Of a stretch of DNA of 64,000 nt, positions 2,165 through 52,934 are shown piece by piece. The notes beneath the pieces were generated by a model. The model searched no databases and had not been told where the DNA came from. It saw only the letters and a program-made list of their open reading frames with translations. A program made the position numbers and the translations under genes. Source of the stretch: Narcine bancroftii. Its lineage: Eukaryota. Within the stretch, counting starts at the first letter, position 1; each line of letters opens with the position of its first letter. The DNA lies in contig NC_091472.1 in NCBI RefSeq assembly GCF_036971445.1, positions 225,928,001 to 225,992,000 on the forward strand. The letters are read 5' to 3'.

Positions 2165-3394
2165 CTGTTGATTCAGTGAGAAGGTGAAGAAATCAGAATG
2201 CACTGATGCTGAACTTCAAAGAAGTCATTTCCTGACCAATACCAACCCTGCTGAAGGAATGATTATCTCCATTTCAATTCAAGTTTGTTATCATCTGATT
2301 GTACATGTACAGCCTGACAAACCAACATCTCTCTGGACCACAGTGCACAAACAAAAACACACAAAACCCAGGACACAACAATCTCTTAAATAATCCAAGC
2401 AAACATGTTGCTACCTGGATGGCCTGGAGCCACGTTCCTGTCATTAGCAGAGTGCAACAGCCCTTTTTTATCCTTTTGTTCAAATGCAGCCGCAGGTAAT
2501 ACAGTTTAATTTTCAGAGATCATACCTTTGCAAGTAAAATAAGCTGGAGCGCAGAGCAGGGTGGATTTGCTTTGAGTCTTACACGAGTCCCTGCACGCTT
2601 GGCGCGTTTCTGTGTCCTTGCCCACCGTTTTTGACAACTTCCTCTCCGAGTTTCAGAATCAGAATTTGAATTTATTGTCGTGAACATGTCATGTCTTGTG
2701 GCAACATCACAGTGCAAACATTTATATAAACCACCTTACAAAATAAATTTAAATAGTGCAAGAAAAAGAAAAATACCAAATAAGGCAGTGGCTTTGACTC
2801 ATTGTTCATCCAGGAATCTGATGGCAGAGGGGAAGAAGCTGACATTGTGCCGCTGGGTGGTCATCTTCAGGATCCTGTACCTTTACCCTGATGGTGGCAG
2901 AGTGAAGGAGGCTGAGGCCTGGGTGGAGGATAGAGGCTGCTTTTTAAAGACACCACCTCTTGTAGATGTCCTCAATGGAATGAAAGCTGGCACCCGTGAC
3001 GTCACAGGGCGAGTTAATAACCTTATGGAATTTTTTCTTGTCCTGAGTGCTAGCACCTCTGTTTCATACAGCGATGCAACTAGCCAAAGTTTCCAAGTGA
3101 CATACCAAATCTCCTCAAACTCCTTACAAAATATAACCACTGGCGAGCCTTCTTCATGATTGCATCAACACGGAGGCTCCAGGGCAGATCCTTAGAGATG
3201 TTGACACCCAGGAATTTAACAATGAAGACTGGGTCGTGCTCTTCTGATTTCCTCCTGAAGTTCACAATTGTTACCTTGACAAGGTTGCTGTTGTGATACC
3301 ACTCATTGAGTTGATTTATCTCCCTTCTGTATGCTTCCTCATTGTGGTCTATGATTCTGCCAACAATCGTGGTGTCATTGGGAAATCTGGAGAT

Positions 3395-3664
3395 TGTAGC
3401 GACTGCTACACAGAATGAAACACACCACAACCATGTTGGAGGTTTCAAACGAACTGTTTATTCAAACTTTACATGCACCCCTTTAAGGGCGGTGTGAGCT
3501 CCGCCCCCGCATCGGCAGTGACATCACCACACTCACCCGAGGCACGCGCCCTGGCCTAAGCCACGAGGCACGGAGGTCCCCCAATGGCGCCATCTTCTCG
3601 TGGCTGCCCCACCGGGGCGGTGGTAAAGCGGGGCTGGTTCGCCACAAGGATGTGCACTGCCACA
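3395..3664 (-). repeat. 3' LTR of the Gypsy at 3395-7472
   Basis: Aligns end to end with 7216-7472, with many CpG-type transitions; minus-strand AATAAA at about 3457. Confidence 0.93.
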
Positions 3665-3684
3665 CAACCCCCCACCCCCAAACG

Positions 3685-6530
3685 AGGTTACGCGTCGTTT
3701 CGGCTAGGCTGTTTCTACCGGCTGGCTAAGGTCCAGGTGTGCCGCCTTGAGTCTGTCGACTGTGAATAGCTCCCCCTTTGCCCCGATGTCCAGGGTGAAT
3801 GTCTTGCCTGAGCTTTGCAAGACTTTGTAGGGGCCTTCGTAGGGGTGCTGCAGGGGCATGGTGTGTGGGCCTCGCTGGATGAAAACTAAATCAGCCGTGG
3901 CCAGCTCTTTGGGGACGCAGGACAGGTGGGTTCCGTGGTGGGTCAGTGGTGGGGGCGCTAGTGAGGCGAGCTTACCTCGCAAGTCTGCCAGTAAGGTCTG
4001 ACTCTCGGTCGTGGAACCAATGCTCAAACCGAAGAACTCCCCAGGTAGCAACAGTGGTGCACCATAGACCAACTCCATGGACAATACCTGTAGGTCTTCT
4101 CTCGGAGCCATTCTGATGCCGAGCAGGACCCAGGGCAATTCATCCGTCTAGTTTGGGCCGGTGAGGCAAGTCATGAGGGCCGACCTTAGGTGCCGGTGTA
4201 AGCGCTCCATGAGGTCGTTGGCTTGGGGAAGGTATATGATGGAGTTTGATCTCCAAGAGGTTCACCAGCTGTGACCAGAGGGCGGATGTGAACTGGGCAC
4301 CTCTGTCGCTCATCATGTGAGCCGGGACTCCAAACCTGGCAATCCATTGGGTGAGTAGGTTCCTGTCACAGGACTCAGCGGAAGTGTCTCTCTGTGGGAT
4401 GGCTTCCAGCCACCTCGTCGTGTGGTTGACCACGGTCAAATATAGTGGGCATCTCTGGACACTGGCAGGGGTCCCACGATGTTGATGTGTATGTGTTCGA
4501 ACCTCTTGGCCGTGGAATCAAACTGCTGTACCAGGGCCTTTACATGGCGCTGGACTTTGGAGCTCTGACACTGCGTGCAGTTTCTCACCATCTGGGCTAC
4601 CTGTTTCTTGAGGCCGTGCCACATGAACCGTTCCACCACCATGCGAATTGAGGTCTTGACTGAGGGGTGAGCCAAGTCATGGACCATGCTGAAGGCCTGC
4701 GGTCTCCATTGCGGTGGAGATGTCGCAGAGCAGCACGTCGGGGCTGTCCGGAAGTTTGAGGTCCTGGAGCTGGAGACCCATGATGGCGACGCAGAAAGCT
4801 TGTGTGTCCGCATCCTCCTTCTGAGCCTGTGCTAGCTGGGCATAGTCCAGGCCATGGGCAAAGCTGTGGATGGCTCGCCAACCAGTGATCCTTTGACATT
4901 GCAAGGGCCTGTGTGAGTGGTTTGTGGTCGGTGAAAATGGTGAATGGCCTGCCCTCCAGTAAGTACCGGAATGTCTGATGGCCATGTACAGGGCCAGAAG
5001 TTCCCTGTTGAAGGCACTGTATTTCAGTTCTTGGGGGGGGCGGAGGTGCTTGGTGAAGAAGGCAAGCGGGCGCTACTGGCCATTGACTGATTGCTCCAGG
5101 ACGCACCCGAAGGTCGTGGCTGAAGCATCACCAAGAATGCGGTGTGGGCGTCCAGCTGCGGGTGAGCTTGTAGGGTGGTGTTCGCCAGGGCGTCTTTCGT
5201 CGCAGTGAAAGCGCTCTCGGCCTCTTCCGTCCATTCCAGGGTTTTATTCTTGGTGGCGATCAGTGCGAACAACGGTCGCATGATGCGAACCGCCCCCGGG
5301 ATGAAACGGTGCTAGAAGTTGACCACACCAGCGAATTACTGTAGACCTTTGAGGGTATCAGGCTTCGGGAATTGGCATACGGCTGCGACGTTCTTGGGTG
5401 CCAGGGCAGTCCCATCCGCACAGATGGTATGGCCAAGGAACTGTAGGGACTGCTTGCCGAACTGGCACTCGACCACGTTGACCGTGAGGCCAAACTCTGC
5501 CAGACGGGCGAATAGCGCACAGAGATGGACCTTGTGTTCTTTGTTGTCCTAGCAGGCGATGAGAATGTCATCGAGATAGATAAACACAAAGTCCAAGTCT
5601 CTGCCCACTGCATCCATCAGGCGCTGAAATGTCTGGGCCGCGTTTTTAAGACTGAAGGGCATCCACAGGAACTCGAATAGGCCGAATGGGGTGATGATCA
5701 CGGTCTTGCTGATGTCGTCAGTGTGGACCTGGATCTGGTGGTAACCCTGTACCAGGTCGACCTTCGAGAAAACCCGAGTGCCGTGCAAGTTGGCCGTAAA
5801 GTCCTGTATATGTGGGATGGGATGTCGGACTGACGTAGTCGCATCGTTGAGACGACGGTAGTCCTGCATGGGCGCCAAACCCCAGAAGCCTTCAGGACCA
5901 TGCAGACAATTTCCAGCTCCTGCAGTCAGGAGAACTCCTCCTTTGCCAGTTGCAGCTTCTTGGGGGGCACCCACCTGGCCTTGGCATGGAGGAGAGAGCC
6001 CTGTGTCAAAATGTGGTGGCCATGCCATGTTGGGGCATGCTGGGGCATGGCAGAAGTAAACTGCGGCTGCAGGATGGAGGGGAACTTGTCGAGCATGTGG
6101 GAATACTCGTACTTGGGGGTGCTGATGGAAGCTATTCCCAGGCCACAAGGACCTGTGGAGTTGAGGCGGCGGATTGGATGGTACAGGCATGTACCAATTG
6201 CTTGCCTTTGATGTCCACCAACAGGCTGTGCGCCCAGAGGAAATCGGCTCCCAGCAGCGCTGTGCCCACCGAGGCCAGTATGAATTTCCAGCGGAACTTG
6301 TCCTTGCCAATCTGGATCTGTTTGCTGAGTGTGTCGAAAGTCTTGATGGAGGATCCGTTGGCTGCCTGTAGGGTTGGGCCCCGTGCGCGGGTGTGGGTCT
6401 CGAGGGCAGTCAGGGGGAGCAGGCTCAGTTCTGCTCCGATGTCTACCAGGAAATGTCGGCCACTGGGCTTATCAATCACATGCCCGGCCAGCTGTCACAG
6501 CCATTAACGGCAGCTGCCTAGGTCATTTCC
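3685..6530 (-). pseudogene. pol: Gypsy pol (protease, RT, RNase H, integrase), frameshifted
   Basis: FLVDIGAE (PR), DYRRLN, KVDLVQGYHQI and YLDD (RT), FTDHKPL (RH), HPSVK..CTQCQ, SDRGAQF and YEGPY (IN), spread over several ORF-track fragments. Confidence 0.92.
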
Positions 6531-9809: not shown

Positions 9810-12715
9810 TGGGCACAGCCGTCTGTACTGGCCGCGACAAGTCCAAATGGGCCGTCTTCAAGCGGTCCACTGTAAAAAGTTCCTCCTTTCCCCCCACATC
9901 CAGAGAGAAAGTTCTACTGGATCGCCAGAGGACTTTATACGGACCTAAAATGGTGCCCTCTGCAGTCCTCTCCGGACGAACACAAACTGTGCCGAGTCCA
10001 GTTCCTTGGGGTGGTGGGATGGCCAGTTGCCATGGCGTGATGGGGGTGGAGGCCCCCCAGGGAGGCCAGTTTCCTGCGGAGATCCGCCAGCAGGTTCATG
10101 TCCCCAGGTGCTGGTCGGCTTCTGAGCTGAAGAATTCGCTGGGCAGGGAAAGTGGTGCGCCGAATACTAGTTCTGATGACAAGACTTGCAGGTCCTCCTT
10201 GGGTGCTGTCCTGATCCCAAGGAGGACCCAAGGCAGTTCGTCTGCCCCGTCCGGGCTGGTGAGTCGGGACATGAGGGCAGTCTTTAGGTGCTGGTGAAAC
10301 CTCTCCACCAAACCGTTGGACTGTGGGTGGTAGGCCGTGGTGTGGTGGAGTTTAACCCCCAAGAGCCTCGCCAGCTGGGCCCATAGCGCGGAGGTAAACT
10401 GGGCGCCCCTGTTGCTGGTGATGTGCGGCGGCACGCCAAAACTGGCGATCCACTGACTGACTCATGATTCGGTCCACTACCGTAAAGAGGTTGCGCACTT
10501 CCCTGGACACTGGCAAGGGGCCGATGACATCAATGTGGATGTGCTGGAACCTCTGTGCTGACAAGTCGAAGGGTTGGATTGGGGCCTGCATGCGTCTGTG
10601 GATTTTGGAGGCCTGGCACCTAGTGCAGTTCCTAGCCAACTCCGCCACCTCCTTCTTGAGCCCGTGCCACACGAACCGTTCTGCCACCATCCGCACGGTC
10701 ATCTTCACTGAGGGATGAGCGAGGTCGTGGATTAGGCTAAGGACTCTCGCCCTCCATTGTGTCAGTACTACCGGGTGCGGTGGGCCTGTGGAGACGTAGC
10801 AGAGCAGCGCATCCGGGCTGTTGGGCAGCTGGATGTCCTTGAGGTCAAGGCCCGAGATGGCAGTCCTGAGAGCTGTTGGGCCTGGGCTAGCTGTATATAG
10901 TTAAGCTCAGGGGCTAGCGTGTTGATGGATGGGTGCGAGAGTGCGTCCGCTACTACGTTGTCCTTGCCTGCTCTGTGCCGGATGTCAGAATTGAATTCCG
11001 ACACGTAAGAGAGGTGGCGCTGTTGTCTGGCTGACCATGGGTCCTTGGCCATGGCGAGTGCCTGGGTGAGGTGCTTGTGGTCTCTGAAGACTGTGAAGGA
11101 TCTGCCCTCCAGGAAATAGTGGAAATGGCGGTTGGCCAAGTACAGCGCCAGGAGCTCCCGATTGAATGCGCTGTACTTGAGCTCCAGCAGGTGCAGCTGT
11201 TTACTGAAAAAGGCTAGTGGGTGCCATTGTCCATTGAGCCGTTGCTCTAGAATTCCCCCGACCGCCTTAGTTGAGGTGTCCAACTAGAGTGTCATGTGTG
11301 TGCCTCCGGGCATGGGTGCACCAGCAACGTTGCACTGGCGAGAGCTTCTTTCGTTTTGCCATTAAAGCCTTATCCACCTCTTCCAACCAGGATAAGGTAT
11401 TTTCCTTCACGGCGATAAGTGCGAACAGTGGACGCATGGTATGGGCGGCACTGGGGATGAACCGATGGCAAAAGTTCACCATCCCCACGAACTCTTGCAG
11501 GCTTTTGAGGGTGGAAGGTTTGGGGAAATGTTGGATGGCTGCCACCTTCTCCGGTGCTGGAGTGGCCCCAGACGCCGAGATCGTGTGCCCCAGGAATTGC
11601 AGCGACTACTTCCCAAACTGGCATTTGGCCGCGTTGACTGTGAGGCCGAACTCCGCCAGCCGGGCAAATAGGGTTTGGAGGTGGACCTTGTGTTCTTTGT
11701 GGTTGTGACTGTTGATGAGGATATCATCTAGGTAGATGAACACAAAGTCCAAGTCCCTACCCACTGCGTCCATGAGGCGCTGGAATGTCTGGGCTGCATT
11801 CTTTAACCCGAAAGGCATCCAAAGGAACTCGAAAAGGCCGAACAGGGTGATGATCGCAGTCTTTCCCACATAGTCGGGGTGCACTGGGATCTGGTAATAT
11901 CCTTGCACAAGGTCAACCTTGGAAAAGAACTGAGCGTCGTGGAGGTTGGCCAAGAAATCTTGTTTGTGGGGGACTGGGTACCTCTCGGGGGTTGTGGCAT
12001 CATTCAGCCATCGGTAGTCTCTGCAGGGTCTCCAGTCCCCAGACGACTTGGGGGCCATGTGGAGCAGTGATGCCCAGGCACTGTCTGAAAGCCGGACGAT
12101 CCCCAATTTTTGGAGCCTTGAAAACTCCTTCTTCGCCTACTGCAGCTTTTCGGACGGCAGACATCTGGGCTTAGCGTGCAATGGGGGGCCTTGCGTGGCA
12201 ATGTGGTGGAAAACTGTGTCGGGGGAAAGCGGCATTGATACGTGGCTCCAAGATGGCGGGGAATTCATGGAGTATATTGGCATACATCCCTGGCAGCAGC
12301 CACAGCGGTGATCTCGGGTCTGATGGCATCCACAGTGTCCAAAAGCACGGAGTGGAAAGTGCAGGCGTTGACCAACCTCTTGCTCTTCATGTCGACCAGT
12401 GAGCCCTCAGGAAGTCGGCCCCCAACAGCATGGTGCCCACTGAAGCCAACCCGAACCTCCAGTGGAATTTTTCTTTGCCGATTTGGATCTGCGCCCTACA
12501 GGTGTCATAGGTCTTGATGGTGGAATAATTGGCCACCCGCAGGGTTGTACCAGGAGATCGGGTGTGAGTCTCCAGCATTGTCGGGGGTAGGACGCTCAGC
12601 TCAGCCCCTATGTCCACCAGGAAACACCGGCAGGTGGATTTATCAGTGACATAAAGGAGACTGTTCACGTGGCAGCCATCACAGCCATCAACGGCGGCTG
12701 GCCTGGTCGTTTCCC
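9810..12715 (-). pseudogene. pol: Gypsy pol, frameshifted
   Basis: FLVDIGAE, WAS.LHMAPK, YLDD, ELLALYLA, HHTTAYHPQSNGLVERFH, YGP motifs. Confidence 0.92.
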
Positions 12716-13326
12716 TGGAAGCTGCAGGGTTGGCGGCACTTATGGGCTTGCACTCCCCAACGCTGATGATAAAAGTATCAGGACAAATGGTTCTCTTCTG
12801 GCTTGTGCTTGGGGGCGGCTTGCGGTCAACTGGTTCCTGGTCTTGAAACCTGGTTGAGTGCTGCCAGAGGGCGTCCGCTCGGGCTGTGACCTTACATGGG
12901 TCCGCAAAATCTTCATCTGCTAGGAGCAGCTGGATATCCTCCTGCATTTGTTCGAGGAAAATCTGGCAGAAGAGGAAACAAGGTTTATGATCTTCCGCCA
13001 GGGCCAGCATTTCGTCCATTAACGCTGATGGGCTGCTGTCCCCAAGATCCTGGAAGCCTGTTGCTTGGGGGGCGAGGCCAGAAGTCCTCAGGAGCAAGTT
13101 CTTGAGGGTGGTATATTTACCCTCAGCCGGAGGATGATGGATGAGGTTGTCCACCTTGGCTGCTGTGTCTTGATCCAGCACGCTCACAACGTGGTAAAAC
13201 ATCGTGGCATCCGCTGAGGTTTCTAAGGTGGAATTGCGCTTTCGCCTGCCCAAACCACGTCCGCAGGCGATGGGTTCAGAAGGGGGGAAGCTTGATTGCC
13301 ACGGCATTAACCTCAGCTGAATCCAT
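12700..13326 (-). pseudogene. gag: Gypsy gag
   Basis: Homologous to 6518-7172 (TMFYHVV..LD, LGD..PSALMDEMLALA, FYHQRWG.QAHKCRQPC). Confidence 0.85.
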
Positions 13327-13685
13327 GTCTTTGAGTCCAGAAAGGCATCTGGGCTCATTGGGGTCACCACTGTGACGCACTGCACAGTTGAAGAAAGCAC
13401 AGCCACCACATTGAGAGTCGTTAACGACTGTTTATTTGAATTTAATGTGCGCCCCTTTAACGGCAGTGCTGGCTCAATCACCACATGCGTGGTGATATCA
13501 TAATCACTGCCTGAGGCGTGCGCTGAAAGGGAGGTTTGAGTCAGGAAGAACCCCTGACAGTGCCATTTTCCTTTGGCTGCCCCACCACATGGTGTTATAC
13601 ACGGGGCCAGTTCGCCGCCACAGTTCCTTACATTTAGCAGTGTTTTCCAATCATCACAAGATGAAGAGAACAAGAGATGGCACCT

Positions 13686-13963
13686 TGTTGGGCACTACCA
13701 GTTACCTCAATAATTACAGAGACAAAGACTGAGGGGAACGATAGGCTTTATTAAACAAGAGACTGCTGGCCTGCCCTCCTGGTGACTTCTGGTCCTTGAT
13801 TCCTCCCTGATCCCCCCCATGTGACCCAGACCATAAAGGTCAAATCCCCTCTCCCTCTCCTCATTTTCTTAGCCTTGACCCGGGCCAGCAGTCTCGTGTG
13901 TAATAAAGCCTATCGTTCTCCTCAGTCTTTGTCTCGGTGATTATTGGGGCAACTGGTAGTGCC
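13686..13963. repeat. Inverted repeat of about 81 bp (13691-13771 vs 13883-13963): inverted R-U5 copy at the element's left end
   Basis: Manual reverse complement aligns with about 7 mismatches; the left arm starts TGTTGGG, the reverse of the LTR end CCCAACA. Confidence 0.92.
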
Positions 13964-15283
13964 AGTAATTTATTATACAAGATTTTGAAGGTCTCTGGTA
14001 ATGGAGAAGTTGCTGTGCCCCGAATGGCTAGAGGTAGCCCCCCAAGTCCCGGGTGTATCTGAACTCTTTGAACAACTTTAATAATTCCTCATTGCCGCCG
14101 CCGAAGTAGTCAACTCCGATGAGAAGAAGCTGAAGGTCCTACAGCTGTGAGTCGGCCAAAGGGCTTTCCAGGCCATCCAAAGCAGCATGACCTACGTCGA
14201 GGCGATGGCTGAACTGCGGACGCTGTACAAGCCAAAGGTGAACGAAATCTACTCCCGTTACCTGCTGGCATCCCGAAAACAACAGTCCGCTGAAGAGTTC
14301 ATTCAATGGTTGGTCACACTGGGAAGAGACTGTTTGGAGAACCCCATGGCCACAATATCATTGACTAAGTGCATGGAAGATCTGGTCTGAGACACCTGTG
14401 TGTCGGGAATGAGGTCAGATTATATCCAACAACTTCTCCTCGAGGAGGATCAACTCCCGCTAAAAAGGGCGATTCGACTGATCAGAACTCTAGATTCGGC
14501 TCAGCGCCACACGGAGTTGATTGCGGGCAGAAGTGGGCCTACCATGAACGTTCTGCCACAATGGCCGCCATCCTGGGACTCAGCATTGGGGGTTACCGAC
14601 CTGACCACTGCTGTGGTGACACTGGCATCGTCGAGATGCAATTTCTGTGAGCAGGCTAGGCACTCGAGGTGCTTCTGCCCCGCGAAAGCAGCCACCTACT
14701 CGGGTTGCGGGAAGAAGGGCCATCACCAGAAGGTCTGTAGGTCCAGAACCCTGTCCAGGAGCAGGCAGTGTATGTGCATGAGGAACTTCCGGTGCCGACC
14801 GTATGCGCGGTAAGGGGGGGGGGTGCATTCTTACCTGCTACCGCTCCCAATCTATACACCGGAGCCTACCACATGGATGACATCACTTCTGCCCGCAACG
14901 ACTCAACTTCCCCCTTCTTCTCTGACGAGGGTAGCGAGGTCAACATGGAGGTTGCCATCTTGGGCGGGCTTCCCCACCGATGAGGAGGAGGAGGAGATGC
15001 CTGTCCTGGGATCAGTAACCCTGGACCAAGCCAGCCCTCACCTGATCACAAACTCCATGATGCAGATCTTTTCTTTTTAAACTTTATTTATTCGTTCAAA
15101 AAACAAATAATATATGACATATACAGCAATTAAACATGAACATGAACATTTTTTTATATATATGTAAAAAAAGAAAAGAAAAGATCGCCCGACCCCTTCA
15201 GCCAACTCTCCTAAGGAGAGCCATAAAAAAAGAAAAAAGAAAGAATATTTAAAAAAAAGTTAAATATAAATATTAAAATCTAA

Positions 15284-44388: not shown

Positions 44389-44937
44389 GATTTATTAATT
44401 CCTTTATTAATGGATGTATTGAAACAGGCAACAGAGATTCATTCTTTTCCAGATTTTTTTCTCAAGCAATTATTAGTTATTCTTAAGAAAGATATGGATT
44501 CATTGAAAACAGAGTCTTAAGACCAATTTCATTATTAAATGTTGATTATAAAATTGTGGAAAAAGTTCTAGCTAATAGGTTGGCTAAATATTTACCAGAT
44601 CTAAATCATTTAGGTCAGGCGTGTTTTATTAAAAATCATTATTTGGCAAATAATATTGTGAAATTGATTTCTTTAATTAATGTTTCTCAGGAGGGATCCA
44701 ACCTACCAATGGTTATTTTGTTGGATGCAGAAAAGGCCTTTGATAGAGTAGAGTAGAGTTTCTTATTTAAAGTTTTGGAGAAATTTAAATTTGGCCTCTT
44801 TTTTATTAGTTGGATTAAGGATTTATATAGAAGTCCCACTGCTAGAGTTGTGACAAATGGACAGTTATCTTTACCTTTTATGTTGACCGGATCAACTAGA
44901 CAAGGTTGTCCTTTGTCATCAGCTCTATTTTCGTTAG

Positions 44938-47202
44938 TGTGATAGTACAGATTCTATCACCAATATGTATATGTACATATGTACAGATGGTAGTGTAATA
45001 TGACTGTGATTAGCTGAGAGTGTAGCCACACCTACTGGCAGGTCTTAAAGGATTGCTCCTAGCCAGACCAGGTCATTCTGGACTGGTCGACCTACTTGTG
45101 ATATGCTCCAGTCTTTTAGTTAATAAAATTGTAATGCGTGTCGAAAGAACCAAAGACTTGTTGATCCAAACTAGAAGTGGGGCTCGCAATTCTGGGTTGT
45201 GTGGTAGAGAACCCAGGATCATGCCGGACCCTGACCGCATGCGTCCCCACATGGACGCCCCCCCCCCCCGCCCCCCATACCCAGAAGGCACTCAAATGCT
45301 GCCTGGATTTTTTCTCTTACTATGCCCAAAGGGTTCCACACTATGTCAACAAGGCACGGCCACTCGTCAAGACCACCTCCTTCCCCCTATCAACTGAAAC
45401 CAGAGCGGCTTTCGACTGCATCAAATCAGACATCACTGCTGCAACGCTGCACGCCATCGATGAGTCTATTCCTTTCCAAGTCAAAAGCGATGCGTCTGAC
45501 TTTGCACTGGCAGCCACTTTAAACCAGGCCGGCCGGCCGGTAGCCTTCTTCTCCAGAACCCTCCAGGGTCCTGAGAGCCAACACTCCTCTGTCGAGAAAG
45601 AGGCCCAGGCCATAGTCGAGGCAGTATGTCGTTGGAGACACTACCTCACTGGCAGGCGCTTTACATTGCTGACTGACCAATGCATGGTCTCCTTCATGTT
45701 TAGCAATACCAGCAATGAAAGATCAAGAATGACAAAATCGCCAGGTGGAGAATCGAGCTCTCCACCTTTAATTATGACATACCGTATCGGTCAAGTAAAC
45801 TCAACGACCTGCCAGATGTGCTCTCCAGGGGGACTTACGCCAACATTCAACTGGACAGACTCCAGAAACTCCACGAGGAGCTCTGTCATCCAGGGGTCAC
45901 TAGGTTTGCGCACTTTGTCAAAGCTCGCAACCTGCCCTACACGGTCGAGGAGGTTCGCTCCATGACCCGAGACTGCCCAGTGTGCATTGAATGCAAGCCC
46001 CACTTCTTCCGTCCGGAGAACACCCACGTCATCAAAGCCACCCGCCCCTTTGAGCATCTCAGCATGGACTTCAAGGGGCCCCTACCGTCAACCAACCATA
46101 ACACCTACATCCTTACGGCCATTGACGAGTACTTCCACTTCCCGTTCGCTGTGCCCTGCTCGGACATGACTGCCTCCTCAGTTATAGAGGCCCTGCACAG
46201 CATCTTCACCATCTTCGGGTACCCCAGTTACATCCACAGTGACAGGGAGTCCTCGTTTATGAGTGTGGAGCTGCGGCAGTACCTTCTGGAGCGTGGTATT
46301 GCTTCAAGCAGGTCCACCAGCTATAACCCACGTGGTAATGGGCAAGTCAAAAGAGAGAAAGCGGTTACGCTTGCCCTCCAGTCCAAAGGTCTCTCCACCT
46401 CTCGCTGGCAGGATGTGCTCATGAGTGCCCTACACTCCATCCTCTCCCTCCTATGCACCATGACCAATGCCACCCCCCATGAAAGGATGTTCTCTTTCCT
46501 GAGGAAATCTGAGTCGGGTACAACCATACCAGCATGGCTCACGGTTCCCGGTCCAGTCCTTTTACAACCCCTTGGTTGACCGAGTGACTCTGCTCCATGC
46601 GAACCCCCATTGTGCCTATGTTGAGTACCCAGACAGACGGGAGGTCACAGTCTCGGTAAGGGACCTAGCCCAAGCCGGATCAGGTGCAGCAGTGCCTTTA
46701 ACCCAACCTCCCCTATTCCTTCTCCCTCAGGTCATGTAGTTGAACAGAGGGACCAGCACCACCCACCAGCTCAGGCCAGACTGTCGACAATGCCGTTGGG
46801 GAATTGAGCAAAGGAGTGGCTCCACCCTACAAGCCTGCCAGCGACACGACTCTGGCGATCCCAATCCCGGCACCATGTCGGTCACACCGGATGGTCAGGC
46901 CCCCTGACCGGTACAGCCCCTAACCTCCATCCACCTGGGGTTGGTTCTCAAAGAAGGGGTGAATGTGATAGTACAGATTCTATCACCAATGTGTACATGT
47001 ACATATGTTCAGATAGTAGTGTAGGATGACTGTGATTGGCTGAGAGCGTAGCCAAACCTACTGGCAGGTCTTAAAGGATTTTTCCTAACCAGACCAGGTC
47101 ATTCTGGACTGGTCGACCTACTTGTGATATTCTCCAGTCTTTTAGTTAATAAAAGCCTTGGTTTGGATCAACAAGTTTTTGGTTCTTTCAACGTGCACTA
47201 CA
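44938..47202 (+). mobile_element. Mag-like Gypsy element with internal deletion (gag, PR and most of RT lost) and inverted U5 in the 5' LTR
   Basis: LTRs 44938-45171 and 46964-47202, 5-bp TSD gttag/attag splitting the L1 RT, PPT aaagaaggggtgaa at 46950-46963, RH (SDASD, EKEAQAI) and IN (LCHPG, DFKGP, HSDR, PRGNGQ). Confidence 0.95.
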
Positions 47203-50200
47203 ATTAGTTATTGAACCTTTGGCTCAAGTGATTAGACATGATAGTAAAATTAAAGGTATTAAGGTGAAATCTGATGAATTTAAAATTAATTTGTTTGCAG
47301 ATGATGTTTTGATATATTTAACAAAACTTCAGAATTCCCTGAGGAGTTTACATGACAGATTGGAACAATATGGTGAGATATCAAGTTATAAAGTTAATTG
47401 GGAAAAAAGTGAGATTATGCCTTTAGCCGAAATAGATTATTCTTCATGTAGGCATATTGTGAAATTTAAATGGTCAGGTCAGATTAATTGTTTATGAGTT
47501 AAGGTAGATTGTAATTATAGTAATTTATATGAATTAAATTATTTGCCTTTATTGTCAAAAATTAAACATGATTTGAATCGATGAAAAGATTTATCAATTA
47601 CATTAATAGGATGAGTTAATCGTATTAAAATGAATATTTTTCCTCAAATTCAAATTTTTTCAGTCTATTCCTTCTAAGATTCCACAAAACTTTTTAAAGG
47701 ATTTAAATGCCTTGGTGAGGAAATTTTTATGGAAGGATAAAATGGTAAAGGTGTCATTACAGAAATTGACTTGGAAATATGAATTAGGAGGTTTGCAGCT
47801 TCCTAATTTTCAAAATTATTATGATGCAGCAGAATTGAAATTTATTAATAGAATGTTTGAAATAGATAAACCTTTGATATGGGCTAATATTAAACTATCT
47901 TTAATTGATTATAAGAAGATGGATCAGTTTATTTATAGATGGAATCCTAAATTGTTGAGTAATTATAATTTACCAATTTTGAAACATTTAATGGATTTAT
48001 TATATAAAAAAATGAAGCCATGGGTACTCAAGGTAAGATTTCAGGTAAAACTCCATTGTATCAAAATAAGCCTTTTACAATTAATAATCAACTTCTGAAG
48101 TTATGGGATCAAGAGGATATTAAATTGATGCAAGATTGTAATAAAGCATGATATTTTATTTATTTTCAAAGAATGAAAGAGAAATATGAAATATCTTCAA
48201 ATACTCCTCTTTCTTATTATCAAATTAAAGCTTTATTGTTGAATAATTTTGGACGTACTTTATAGCTACCTAGACAGTTTAAGTTTGAAATTTTACTTAC
48301 TGAGGGTGGTAAGAAGGGATTTATATCCGAGATGTATGCTTTACTACAGAATAAAATGCCTAAGTTGGATTTACATAAATCTAGACTGAAATGGGAGAAA
48401 GATTTAGATATACTTATTTCTTAGGATGATTGGATGAATTTATGTAGGGATAGTATGACTAAAATTGTAAATGTAAGATATCGATTAGTTCATTATAATT
48501 TTATTCATCAATTATATTTAACTCCAGGAAAATTAAGAAAATATAATTTTATTTCTTTGGATTTATGTTTTATATGTCATAAGGACATAGGTTCTTTTTT
48601 ACACTCTACTTGGTCATGTGAGACAGTGAAACCTTTTTGGAATTTTTAGAAGTTATTTTGAATGTGAAATTTCATTAGATCCTTTAGTGTTTTTGTTGAG
48701 TAATATTAAGAGAATTCATTTAGAATTAATATTAAATAGATTTCAAATCGCTTTTTTGAGATTGGCATTAGCTGTGGCTAGAAAATGTTTGGCAATTACT
48801 TGGAAAAATTAGACTGATTTGAGTATTCAGAGATGGCATTTGGAGTTGAGGTCTTGTATTCTATTGGAAAAGATTACATATAATTTACATGATAATTATC
48901 TTTTTTATTGTAAAACCTGGAGCCCATATTTGGATTATATGGGGTTGAATTATTAAATCTTGCAACACAGTAGTGGTGTTGTTCCAAACTATGTAATTAA
49001 CTGATGAATTTTTTTGGGGGTAGGTTGGGGGAGGGGTTCGATGGGGTAGGTGGGTTAGGGAAGGGGTGGGGGTTGTAGGGGATAAGTTTTAAAATATCAT
49101 GTATGTACTTTCATTAATTCCATGTTTTAACATATACATCATAATGCAATAAATAACATTTTTTCAAAAGAATGCCCATAAGGACTTCACAGGTAGGTGT
49201 TAATTGGAATGCTGTGGAGTAATGGATTATTGTTTTGAAAAGCAACAGATGAACAGACTCGCAAGATTAGGTCCAGTGCCACAGTCTGTCTGAATGCAGT
49301 TTGCTTTTCTAAGAGGGTCATGTGATTTTCTCTGTGAGAGAGAGAGAATTCAGTTCTACAGTTCAGTAGGAGCAGCTGGGACTGGAACAGGACAAGCTGG
49401 CAAGCTTGTTTGAAACCCCATTTTAAAGACAGTTTGTGAGTTCTTAGTTCAGCCTGTTCAAAGTCCTTGTGGTCCATGCAAGAGGAGATGGCTGGCTGTA
49501 TAATGTTTCACTTGAAATAAGGGAAAAGAAAAGGAACTCTGTAGTGACCTGGAAGAAAGAGGTTATCATCAGGAAAACCCTGATGGGGCAATTGTCTTTG
49601 GCAAGACACCGAAATGACTGATCAGAAGGAATCAACGAGAAACAAATCTCTCTCTGAAAACTGACAAGAACCTTCCTGAGCGGTAACCTTTTACCTTTCA
49701 AGCACCAAAGCCTGGTGAAGATTCATAAATATTAAATTCTGTGGACAGTATAAAAACTGCCTGTTCCCTGTGAACTTAGAAGAGAGAGAAGTGAGATTGG
49801 ACTGTGAATCAAAGAACTTTTAGGAAATTATATACATATTACAAACACGTGTGCTTAGAATTAGAAAGGGGTTAAGTTAATAGTCACAAGTTAAAGTTTG
49901 ATCCTGTTTTTATGTTTAAGATAATTAAAAATAACTTTTGTTTCAGTAACCATTTGTCTTGGTGAATTTCTATTGCTGCTGGGTTTTGGGGTCCTCTGGG
50001 CTCATAACATTCGTGTCTGTAATTCATTGCCAATTCAGAAATCAAAAGGCAGAGAGGAAGAAACTGTTTTTGGACCACTGGGTGTTTGTCTTCAGGTTCC
50101 TGTATCTCCTTCCTGATGGTAGCAGTGAGAAGAGGGTGGGGGGGGGGGTTGGTGCAGGGGGGAGGTTCCTTGAGGATAAAGGCTGCCCTCTCAAGGCAAC

Positions 50201-52403: not shown

Positions 52404-52934
52404 AGGATTAATTGGTTAGTGATTTTGTCTATTTAACTTTACATTTTAAAGTCAGTTATGTGAGGCAATGGGTCAAGTGTTAGCTTGGAACTTGCAATCA
52501 TATACTGTATGTATCATACACTTGGATCTTGTATAGCAAAGAAGAGAGTGAATCCAGGAGAACATCTGTTGTCCAAATTGAGTCTTAAGTGGCAACTTTT
52601 GGAACAGTAGAATTTCAATTCAGTGAGGGTTAAGGGGGGAGAAGGCAGGAGAATGGGGTTAAAAAGTGTGGTGATATGGCTGTATGTACTGGCTGGCCAA
52701 CCCTCTGAGGGTCTCCCTACTTTAGCTCCTCCCTTGATCCTTCCCATGTGAACCCTGGTTGGCCATAAAGGTCGAATCCCCTCTCCTTCCCGCTCATTTT
52801 CCTAGCCTAGACCTGGACCAGCAGTCTCTTGCTTAATAAAGCCTATCGTTCCCGTCAATCTTCTGTCTGCATCATTATTGGGCTACCGATAGCGCCCAAC
52901 AATTTATTAAGCAAGATTTTAGAACTCTCCAATT

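What the first reader, a model, noticed from the sequence alone, without database searches (positions are those of the whole stretch)
45112..45175. 5' LTR reads R...AATAAAA directly into minus-strand U5: the shape of a self-primed strong-stop product
Seen: the 5' LTR matches the 3' LTR up to ttagttaataaaa (45128). It then continues t-tgtaatgcgtgtcgaaagaaccaaagacttgttgatccaaac (45129-45171), the reverse complement of the U5 end in the 3' LTR (47161-47202) plus one spacer base. Read on the other strand the junction is ...TTACA-A-TTTTATT, the same LTR-end/spacer/TTTATT geometry as in the 14 kb and 52 kb elements, although this LTR family has a different sequence. Inference: this is the junction expected if R RNA ending at the poly(A) signal primed minus-strand synthesis and the join was copied into the provirus. 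It could equally be a DNA inversion between the two arms of the same inverted repeat. Either way it independently implies the R:PBS pairing in this second LTR family. A large deletion (gag, PR, most of RT) removes the second junction, so the two models cannot be separated here.
Basis: partly seen in the sequence, partly recalled or inferred. Interest (0 to 1): 0.75.

Follow-up and report, generated by a model that had tools for sequence, protein, structure and literature searches.

The report
Fossil footprints of self-primed retrotransposon copying
The inverted junction recurs at many separate insertion sites of an animal Gypsy retrotransposon lineage whose intact copies carry a self-complementary site in place of a tRNA primer site, so these are likely failed copying products showing that the element primes its DNA synthesis with the cut-off front end of its own RNA, predicted to end at the poly(A) signal.

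Summary
Observation confirmed and generalised. Intact copies read LTR-ACA, one A, then a 14-15 nt complement of the LTR stretch ending at AATAAAA; the two arms co-vary across subfamilies and no TGG tRNA site was seen. The inverted junction has 150 exact matches for this family, 126 for a younger sister family and 2 for the 52-kb family. Almost all checked copies have their own 5-bp TSD, and an exact clean inversion has 0 matches, so these formed before integration. The junction itself is only the 15-nt homology and cannot prove priming. The far breakpoints are more informative. Inverted U5-R pieces end near the base after AATAAAA, the inferred RNA cut. Inverted arms running upstream stop near a TATA/Inr-predicted start about 50 nt earlier. 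Best reading: Tf1-like cis self-priming by a roughly 45-54 nt 5' RNA fragment that stays attached and misdirects second-strand transfer. The lineage lacks a chromodomain, so it is not typical Tf1/sushi. Nothing is shown at RNA or enzyme level, a DNA hairpin over the Inr is a live rival for the arm ends, and this locus's second junction was not seen in short-read contigs.

The parts
44933..44937 (+). left target-site duplication (GTTAG) inside a LINE RT remnant
44938..45128 (+). 5' LTR positions 1-191 (U3 and front of R), ending at AATAAAA
   Evidence: 178/191 identical to the 3' LTR
45045..45051 (+). TATA-like TTAAAGG (predicted promoter element)
   Evidence: 29-31 nt before an Inr-like A in one natural copy of each of four subfamilies; prediction only
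45073..45079 (+). Inr-like TCATTCT; predicted transcription start at A 45075 (LTR 138); lies in the loop of a short DNA hairpin
   Evidence: inverted arms in other copies end near here
45114..45128 (+). 15-nt segment 'a', the exact complement of the PBS of intact copies; inferred 3' end of the self-primer, ending in the poly(A) hexamer
45129..45129 (-). complement of the one-base spacer A between LTR end and PBS
45130..45171 (-). inverted U5-R (LTR 239 to 198), inferred captured minus-strand strong-stop sequence
   Evidence: 37/42 to the 3' LTR; ends of such pieces cluster at the a/R border in two families
45172..45180 (.). 9-base insert at the second junction; its last five bases invert the bases just before the landing site in natural copies
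45181..46963 (+). pol remnant: end of RT, RNase H, integrase, 3' UTR (gag, protease and most of RT absent)
   Evidence: matches 2657-4473 of natural copy L063; Pfam domains of natural copies
46950..46959 (+). polypurine tract
46964..47202 (+). complete 3' LTR, 239 bp, TG...CA
47203..47207 (+). right target-site duplication (ATTAG)
52667..52916 (+). second LTR family: 5' LTR, spacer A and a 14-nt PBS complementary to its own LTR ending at AATAAA

Best explanation
The locus is one of a recurrent class of integrase-inserted, rearranged copies of a chromodomain-less Gypsy lineage, likely by-products of reverse transcription in which the front roughly 50 nt of the element's own RNA, predicted to be cut just after AAUAAA(A), serves as primer and stays attached. 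Shown: PBS/LTR complementarity with co-variation, recurrence, TSDs and breakpoint clustering. Inferred steps: (1) RNA starts at the Inr (LTR 138 here); (2) its segment ending in AAUAAAA pairs with the PBS, which would also hide the 5' poly(A) signal; (3) the RNA is cut at the end of that duplex, by analogy with Tf1 RNase H; (4) minus strong-stop DNA runs U5-R to the cut; (5) the primer is not removed and plus-strand synthesis copies it; (6) because the primer sequence also sits in every LTR, primer copies mis-anneal to LTR DNA. When the minus strand is incomplete, a jump with little or no homology rescues the ends, and integrase inserts the product. The window copy is U3-a, then strong-stop sequence, then a jump into RT.
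For: PBS: all 30 gag-anchored loci show ACA then a T-rich PBS and no TGG. On 22 of those 30, 98.7% of cells pair, with two-sided changes at 2 of 14 pairs in 7 cells; 0 of 500 shuffles reached the 7 cells. A matched indel occurs in both arms, and 4 of 28 family-2 rows show a T>C / A>G pair. Recurrence: 150, 126 and 2 exact matches in three families, against 320 normal LTR-PBS junctions. TSD of at least 4/5: family B 20 of 22 two-U3-end, 14 of 17 short-inversion and 14 of 14 scored type I; family 1 type I 17 of 21, read by eye. Inverted-piece ends: family 1, 26 of 41 within 10 nt of LTR 192; family B, 15 of 30 within 10 nt of 205 and 6 of 30 at 204-205. Upstream arms: family B 12 of 14 end at 147-160 (predicted start 153), family 1 6 of 12 within 7 nt of 138, and one family-2 arm starts one base after its Inr A. 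The start-site idea came from family 1 and was then tested on family B. Two loci in two families skip from R to the base just before the predicted start (L336, L143). Precedent: Tf1 cuts its 11-nt self-primer by RNase H (PMC7175516, passages), and about 50% of Tf1 cDNA keeps a single-stranded PBS copy (PMC11042837, passages).
Against: No RNA start, RNA cut or enzyme activity was observed. The Inr lies in a conserved DNA hairpin (-6.5 and -7.5 kcal/mol in families 1 and B) that could by itself stall or release RT. Several family-1 arm ends carry 9-12 nt of microhomology and could lie at the hairpin base. Family-1 ends are spread (182-202) rather than sharp. U5 haplotype mismatch between the two U5 copies is no higher in type I (6 of 28) than in normal elements (7 of 24), so a two-molecule origin is not shown. 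The test 'pairs with a change on both sides' was not significant (174 of 500 shuffles), and the copies are related. Internal (half-molecule) tRNA priming was not tested.
Confidence: 0.68

Rival explanations
1. Self-priming is real but Tf1-like and short (the RNA starts at segment a, or the 3' copy of R primes). The arm ends near the Inr come from RT stalling at the DNA hairpin during fold-back of plus strong-stop DNA, and type I ends may come from a nick in the same fold at DNA level.
For: Conserved hairpin over the Inr in families 1 and B. Three family-1 arms end at 152-153, next to its base. Complete two-U3-end hairpins are common (24 of 89 family-B loci) and need a DNA template.
Against: Ten of 14 family-B arms reach 147-155 (loop or far arm), not the stem base at 164. 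Family 2 has no such hairpin, yet its one arm stops at the Inr. TATA-to-Inr spacing is 29-31 nt in four subfamilies. L336 and L143 land at start minus 1.
Confidence: 0.2
2. The pairing serves only to hide the 5' poly(A) signal. Priming uses something else (a tRNA fragment or host RNA), and the junctions are ordinary template switches at a 15-nt inverted repeat.
For: The helix covers AATAAA exactly. A seamless junction follows from any switch inside the homology. Internal deletions are common in normal copies too.
Against: No TGG site in 30 of 30 gag-anchored loci. The complement starts one base after the LTR, where a PBS sits. It does not explain the family-B peak at 204-205 or arms ending at the predicted start.
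Confidence: 0.07
3. Inversion between the two arms after integration, followed by deletion; or misassembly.
For: Two loci (L088, L090) look like clean or nearly clean inversions. This locus's second junction was not bridged in short-read contigs.
Against: 0 exact clean inversions. Only 1 of 41 type I loci resumes in the leader, whereas 28 of 30 normal junctions run at least 148 nt into leader and gag. Elements with two U3 ends and a TSD cannot arise this way. The junction type is in contigs of another run.
Confidence: 0.05

Closest known systems
Tf1/sushi self-priming chromoviruses (Tf1, Tf2, Tj1, Tosmo, sushi, Tcn1)
   Same: PBS right after the 5' LTR is complementary to the element's own LTR rather than to a tRNA 3' end. 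A primer copy retained at the cDNA 3' end is reported for Tf1 (PMC11042837 passages).
   Different: No chromodomain. [quoted passage not shown] A full three-duplex 'pretzel' was not shown (searches give nested stems only).
TAR lineage Ty1/copia elements (Houba, Osr-1), predicted self-priming
   Same: Meets the same sequence criterion: at least 10 bp of LTR complement starting 0-5 bp after the 5' LTR (PMC6317226 passages).
   Different: Plant copia elements; this one has the Gypsy order PR-RT-RH-IN and is animal.
Metazoan non-chromoviral Gypsy clades (Mag A/B/C, Cigr-1, MolGy clades)
   Same: About 4.7 kb, short LTR, 5-bp TSD, zinc-knuckle gag, no env, no chromodomain. Relatives at 45-71% identity include ray, insect, mollusc, nematode and tunicate proteins. 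The LTR start resembles the Mag C motif in PMC3601003.
   Different: Clade not determined, because no reference sequences were at hand. Self-priming is not mentioned for these clades in the passages I saw.

Membership tests
Ty3/Gypsy LTR retrotransposon | gag then PR-RT-RH-IN between TG...CA LTRs, PPT, TSD | tested here: met
   Pfam zinc knuckle, protease, RT-RNase H and rve in order on natural copies; 239-bp LTRs, PPT, 5-bp TSD. The RT core was seen only in homologues' precomputed domains.
Tf1/sushi chromoviruses | chromodomain at the integrase C-terminus | tested here: not met
   No chromo hit in L065 integrase frame (E<=0.01) or in five homologues (E<=0.1).
Tf1/sushi chromoviruses | PBS complementary to own LTR, no tRNA PBS | tested here: met
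Tf1/sushi chromoviruses | primer is the very 5' end of the RNA | tested here: inconclusive
   Promoter motifs and arm ends put the start 30-40 nt before the duplex; no RNA ends were available.
Tf1/sushi chromoviruses | three-duplex pretzel fold | tested here: inconclusive
   Central helix supported; side helices weak or nested.
Tf1/sushi chromoviruses | RNase H cleavage of the RNA duplex creates the primer | not testable with these tools
   Only the inferred cut position is available.
Tf1/sushi chromoviruses or Mag/Cigr-1 clades | placement in an RT-RH-IN tree with reference elements | not tested
   No reference sequences obtained (searches gave none).
Half-molecule tRNA priming (some copia lineages) | PBS complementary to an internal tRNA segment | not tested
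   Host tRNA set not compared.

The most novel reading that the evidence does not exclude
A widespread non-chromoviral animal Gypsy lineage independently uses self-priming with a capped, roughly 50-nt 5' RNA fragment whose 3' end is the poly(A) hexamer. One helix would both silence the 5' poly(A) site and make the primer. The unremoved primer yields hairpin mini-elements, inverted-LTR copies and a mobile 278-bp tandem unit, so the genome itself maps the start site and the cut site.
Probability: 0.45. Interest if true: 0.75.

Novelty: new variant of a known kind. Interest (0 to 1): 0.62.

Why it matters
Self-priming has been described for Tf1/sushi-type chromoviruses and predicted for one plant copia lineage. 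If this reading holds, it occurs in a further, chromodomain-less animal Gypsy lineage with a different primer design tied to the poly(A) signal. Rearranged insertions are not rare: the inverted junction has 150 exact matches against 320 for the normal one. That would be a measurable cost of using part of the LTR as primer and a source of palindromes and tandem arrays in the host genome. It also offers a method: breakpoints of dead insertions can map the start site and primer end of an element with no RNA data, and the predicted positions are directly testable by end sequencing.

Tried and rejected
1. U5 haplotype test for a two-template origin: null, 6 of 28 against 7 of 24.
2. RNA evidence: no RNA holder listed, and all runs are contigs, which cannot show starts. 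The locus-specific second junction was not covered at 100% identity; a hole proves nothing.
3. Distant relatives with DNA context: the metagenome scan gave 2 loci. L274 has a TTTATT near its LTR end but I saw no matching LTR arm by eye, and L275 was not examined. The viral collection gave none. The prokaryote collection gave one contig, not examined.
4. Clade placement failed: PDB 0 hits with one fragment, Atlas gave generic gag clusters only, the motif search in papers gave 0. The supplement list of PMC6238403 was seen but not opened.
5. Literature: searches showed no report of such inverted junctions or of an AATAAA-ended self-primer. Only listings were seen for most hits, and passages for eight papers. 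Subscription papers (Butler 2001, Levin 1995-98, Jule, Cigr-1) and Repbase were not searchable and could already note this PBS.
6. Earlier scan findings: none.
7. The first junction search favours long inverted pieces, so end-position counts use the pattern-based sets only. These were the first 100 of 150 hits (78 loci on five contigs) and 89 loci from the first 100 of 126 hits.
8. The ungapped mapping broke at indels for some rows; for those I used the gapped ends.
9. Cleavage by the host poly(A) machinery as source of the primer end was considered and not favoured, since it cuts 10-30 nt after the hexamer (recalled).

Full report
Observation. The window element spans 44938-47202 inside a LINE RT remnant, with a 5-bp TSD GTTAG/ATTAG. 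The 5' LTR matches the 239-bp 3' LTR to AATAAAA (45128; 178 of 191). It is followed by T and 42 bases that are the reverse complement of the 3' LTR end (37 of 42), a 9-base insert, and then RT sequence at about position 2657 of a 4.7-kb natural copy.

The intact family. Natural full-length copies are about 4.7 kb with gag zinc knuckle, protease, RNase H and integrase domains and no chromodomain. The closest named database proteins are from rays; relatives at about 50% identity are from insects, a mollusc, a nematode and a tunicate. After the 5' LTR these copies read A, then the exact complement of LTR 177-191, which I call segment a. All 30 gag-anchored loci show this kind of site and none a TGG. 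The arms change together between subfamilies: two pairs with two-sided changes in 7 cells, 98.7% of cells paired, slid controls 38-65%, in 22 of the 30 loci. There is also a one-base indel on both sides. The 52-kb family has a different 14-nt pair ending at AATAAA, with its own T>C / A>G variant in 4 of 28 rows. The copies are related, so these counts are not independent events, and the pair-level test was not significant (174 of 500 shuffles).

Recurrence. Exact matches genome-wide: inverted junction 150 (about 43 of them in tandem units), normal LTR-PBS junction 320, plain LTR 4349, reversed controls 0. The same junction has 126 matches in a younger sister family (family B) and 2 in the 52-kb family. 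I classified 78 family-1 loci (the first 100 hits) by eye: 41 type I (U3-a, inverted U5-R, then a jump elsewhere; the window's type), 15 two-U3-end hairpins, 10 tandem-unit loci, 6 type II (normal 5' LTR and PBS continuing as an inverted upstream arm, then a jump), 5 short inversions and 1 mixed. Of 89 family-B loci: 34 type I, 24 hairpins, 17 short inversions, 14 type II. Landing sites differ between loci and, in family-B type I, have 0-4 bases of homology.

Before or after integration. TSDs of at least 4/5 were found in 20 of 22, 14 of 17 and 14 of 14 scored family-B loci (three loci could not be scored), and in 17 of 21 family-1 type I loci. An inversion between the arms of an integrated copy would leave PBS and leader in place. 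That exact pattern has 0 matches, and only 1 of 41 type I loci resumes in the leader, whereas 28 of 30 normal junctions continue at least 148 nt. A two-U3-end element inside one TSD cannot be made by such an inversion. These are products formed before integrase acted.

What the breakpoints say. The invariant junction is simply the 15-nt homology and would arise from any switch within it. The second breakpoints are independent information. Inverted U5-R pieces end near the base after AATAAAA: 26 of 41 within 10 nt in family 1, and 15 of 30 distinct events in family B, with 6 of 30 at 204-205. That is where a Tf1-type cut would end the template. Type II arms end near an Inr-like motif that lies 29-31 nt behind a TATA-like TAAAGG in four subfamilies. 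I noticed this in family 1 (6 of 12 within 7 nt) and then tested it in family B, where 12 of 14 arms end at 147-160 around the predicted 153. One family-2 arm begins one base after its Inr A. L336 and L143 skip from R to the base before the predicted start, as expected if an annealed RNA starting there blocked plus-strand synthesis. A few type I pieces run to the predicted start itself (L355, L121), which would fit occasional priming on an uncut RNA.

Mechanism (inferred). The RNA starts at the Inr, folds segment a onto the PBS, is cut after AAUAAA(A), and the roughly 45-54 nt fragment primes minus strong-stop DNA and remains attached. Plus-strand synthesis copies it. Because the primer sequence also lies in each LTR, its copies can anneal to the wrong place, giving hairpins, inverted arms and captured strong-stop pieces. 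An incomplete minus strand is rescued by a jump with little or no homology. For the window copy two routes fit equally: a stalled minus strand jumped onto a strong-stop end and finished on plus-strand U3, or a plus strand paused after segment a and re-primed at the PBS. The haplotype test could not separate them.

Against. Nothing was measured on RNA or enzyme. The Inr sits in a conserved DNA hairpin in families 1 and B, and several family-1 arms have long microhomologies, so stalling on DNA could explain part of the clustering. A DNA-level nick in the same fold could also set the type I ends. Short-read contigs show the junction type but not this locus's second junction. Internal tRNA priming was not tested.

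Comparison. It works like Tf1/sushi self-priming: Tf1 pairs its first 11 bases with the PBS and cuts between bases 11 and 12 (PMC7175516, passages), about half of Tf1 cDNA keeps a PBS copy (PMC11042837, passages), and the pretzel fold is described in bioRxiv 10.1101/2022.12.06.519325 (passages). PMC6317226 lists self-priming for Tf1/sushi, Tcn1 and TAR and gives the sequence criterion met here (passages). Passages of PMC4600332, PMC3601003, PMC6238403 and PMC13524379 were also seen. The lineage fails the chromodomain test, so it is not filed as Tf1/sushi; its clade is undetermined. Nine searches showed no description of this primer design or of such junctions, but older subscription papers, Repbase and unopened supplements could hold one.

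Verdict. A real, recurrent feature and a new variant of a known mechanism. Self-priming of some form about 0.88; the long 5' primer ending at the poly(A) hexamer about 0.68; interest 0.62.

Noticed in passing
G000 C11 (about 227-242 Mb), C9, C1, C5; loci L126, L134, L148, L164, L169-L173: Tandem arrays of a 278-bp unit (LTR, spacer, PBS, inverted arm to about LTR 140-149, then LTR from position 6). 43 exact junction matches at about 18 loci, most on one end of C11; several arrays have their own TSD. Possibly a mobile mini-element with no PPT.
   Followed up: partly
L315, L340, L341 and 14 more family-B loci; L114, L119, L138, L146, L162 in family 1: Solo-LTR-like insertions with a 31-nt inverted U5 copy inserted right after AATAAAA via an AAAG microhomology. 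TSD in 14 of 17; the inverted piece usually matches the copy's own U5 variant.
   Followed up: partly
L332, L337, L343 and others; L100: Mini-elements of about 430 bp with U3 at both ends and a clean 5-bp TSD: 24 of 89 family-B loci (including three that run on into internal sequence), 15 of 78 family-1 loci.
   Followed up: yes
L067, L078, L099 (C23, within about 2 Mb); L380-L383 (C11, within about 1.5 Mb): Local groups sharing one second breakpoint but with different flanks, suggesting that some rearranged forms were copied again.
   Followed up: no
L062-L065, L204-L243: Normal two-LTR copies differ between their 5' and 3' U5 end haplotypes in 7 of 24 informative cases, hinting at frequent strand transfer between molecules.
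   Followed up: partly
window 13685-13970: Family-2 copy whose left end is an inverted U5-R piece (LTR 236 to 152) joined to forward U3: another strong-stop-like capture, here apparently without the primer.
   Followed up: partly
L008; last unit of L148: LTR followed by 8-15 bases of PBS and then host DNA, like the PBS tails described for Tf1 cDNA.
   Followed up: no
one search hit list: A younger sister family has identical LTR pairs and long open frames (up to about 1500 codons) in several copies, so the lineage was active recently.
   Followed up: no
window 12200-13630, minus strand: Unrelated Gypsy gag-protease remnant; resembles CsRn1-type elements (label recalled, not tested).
   Followed up: no
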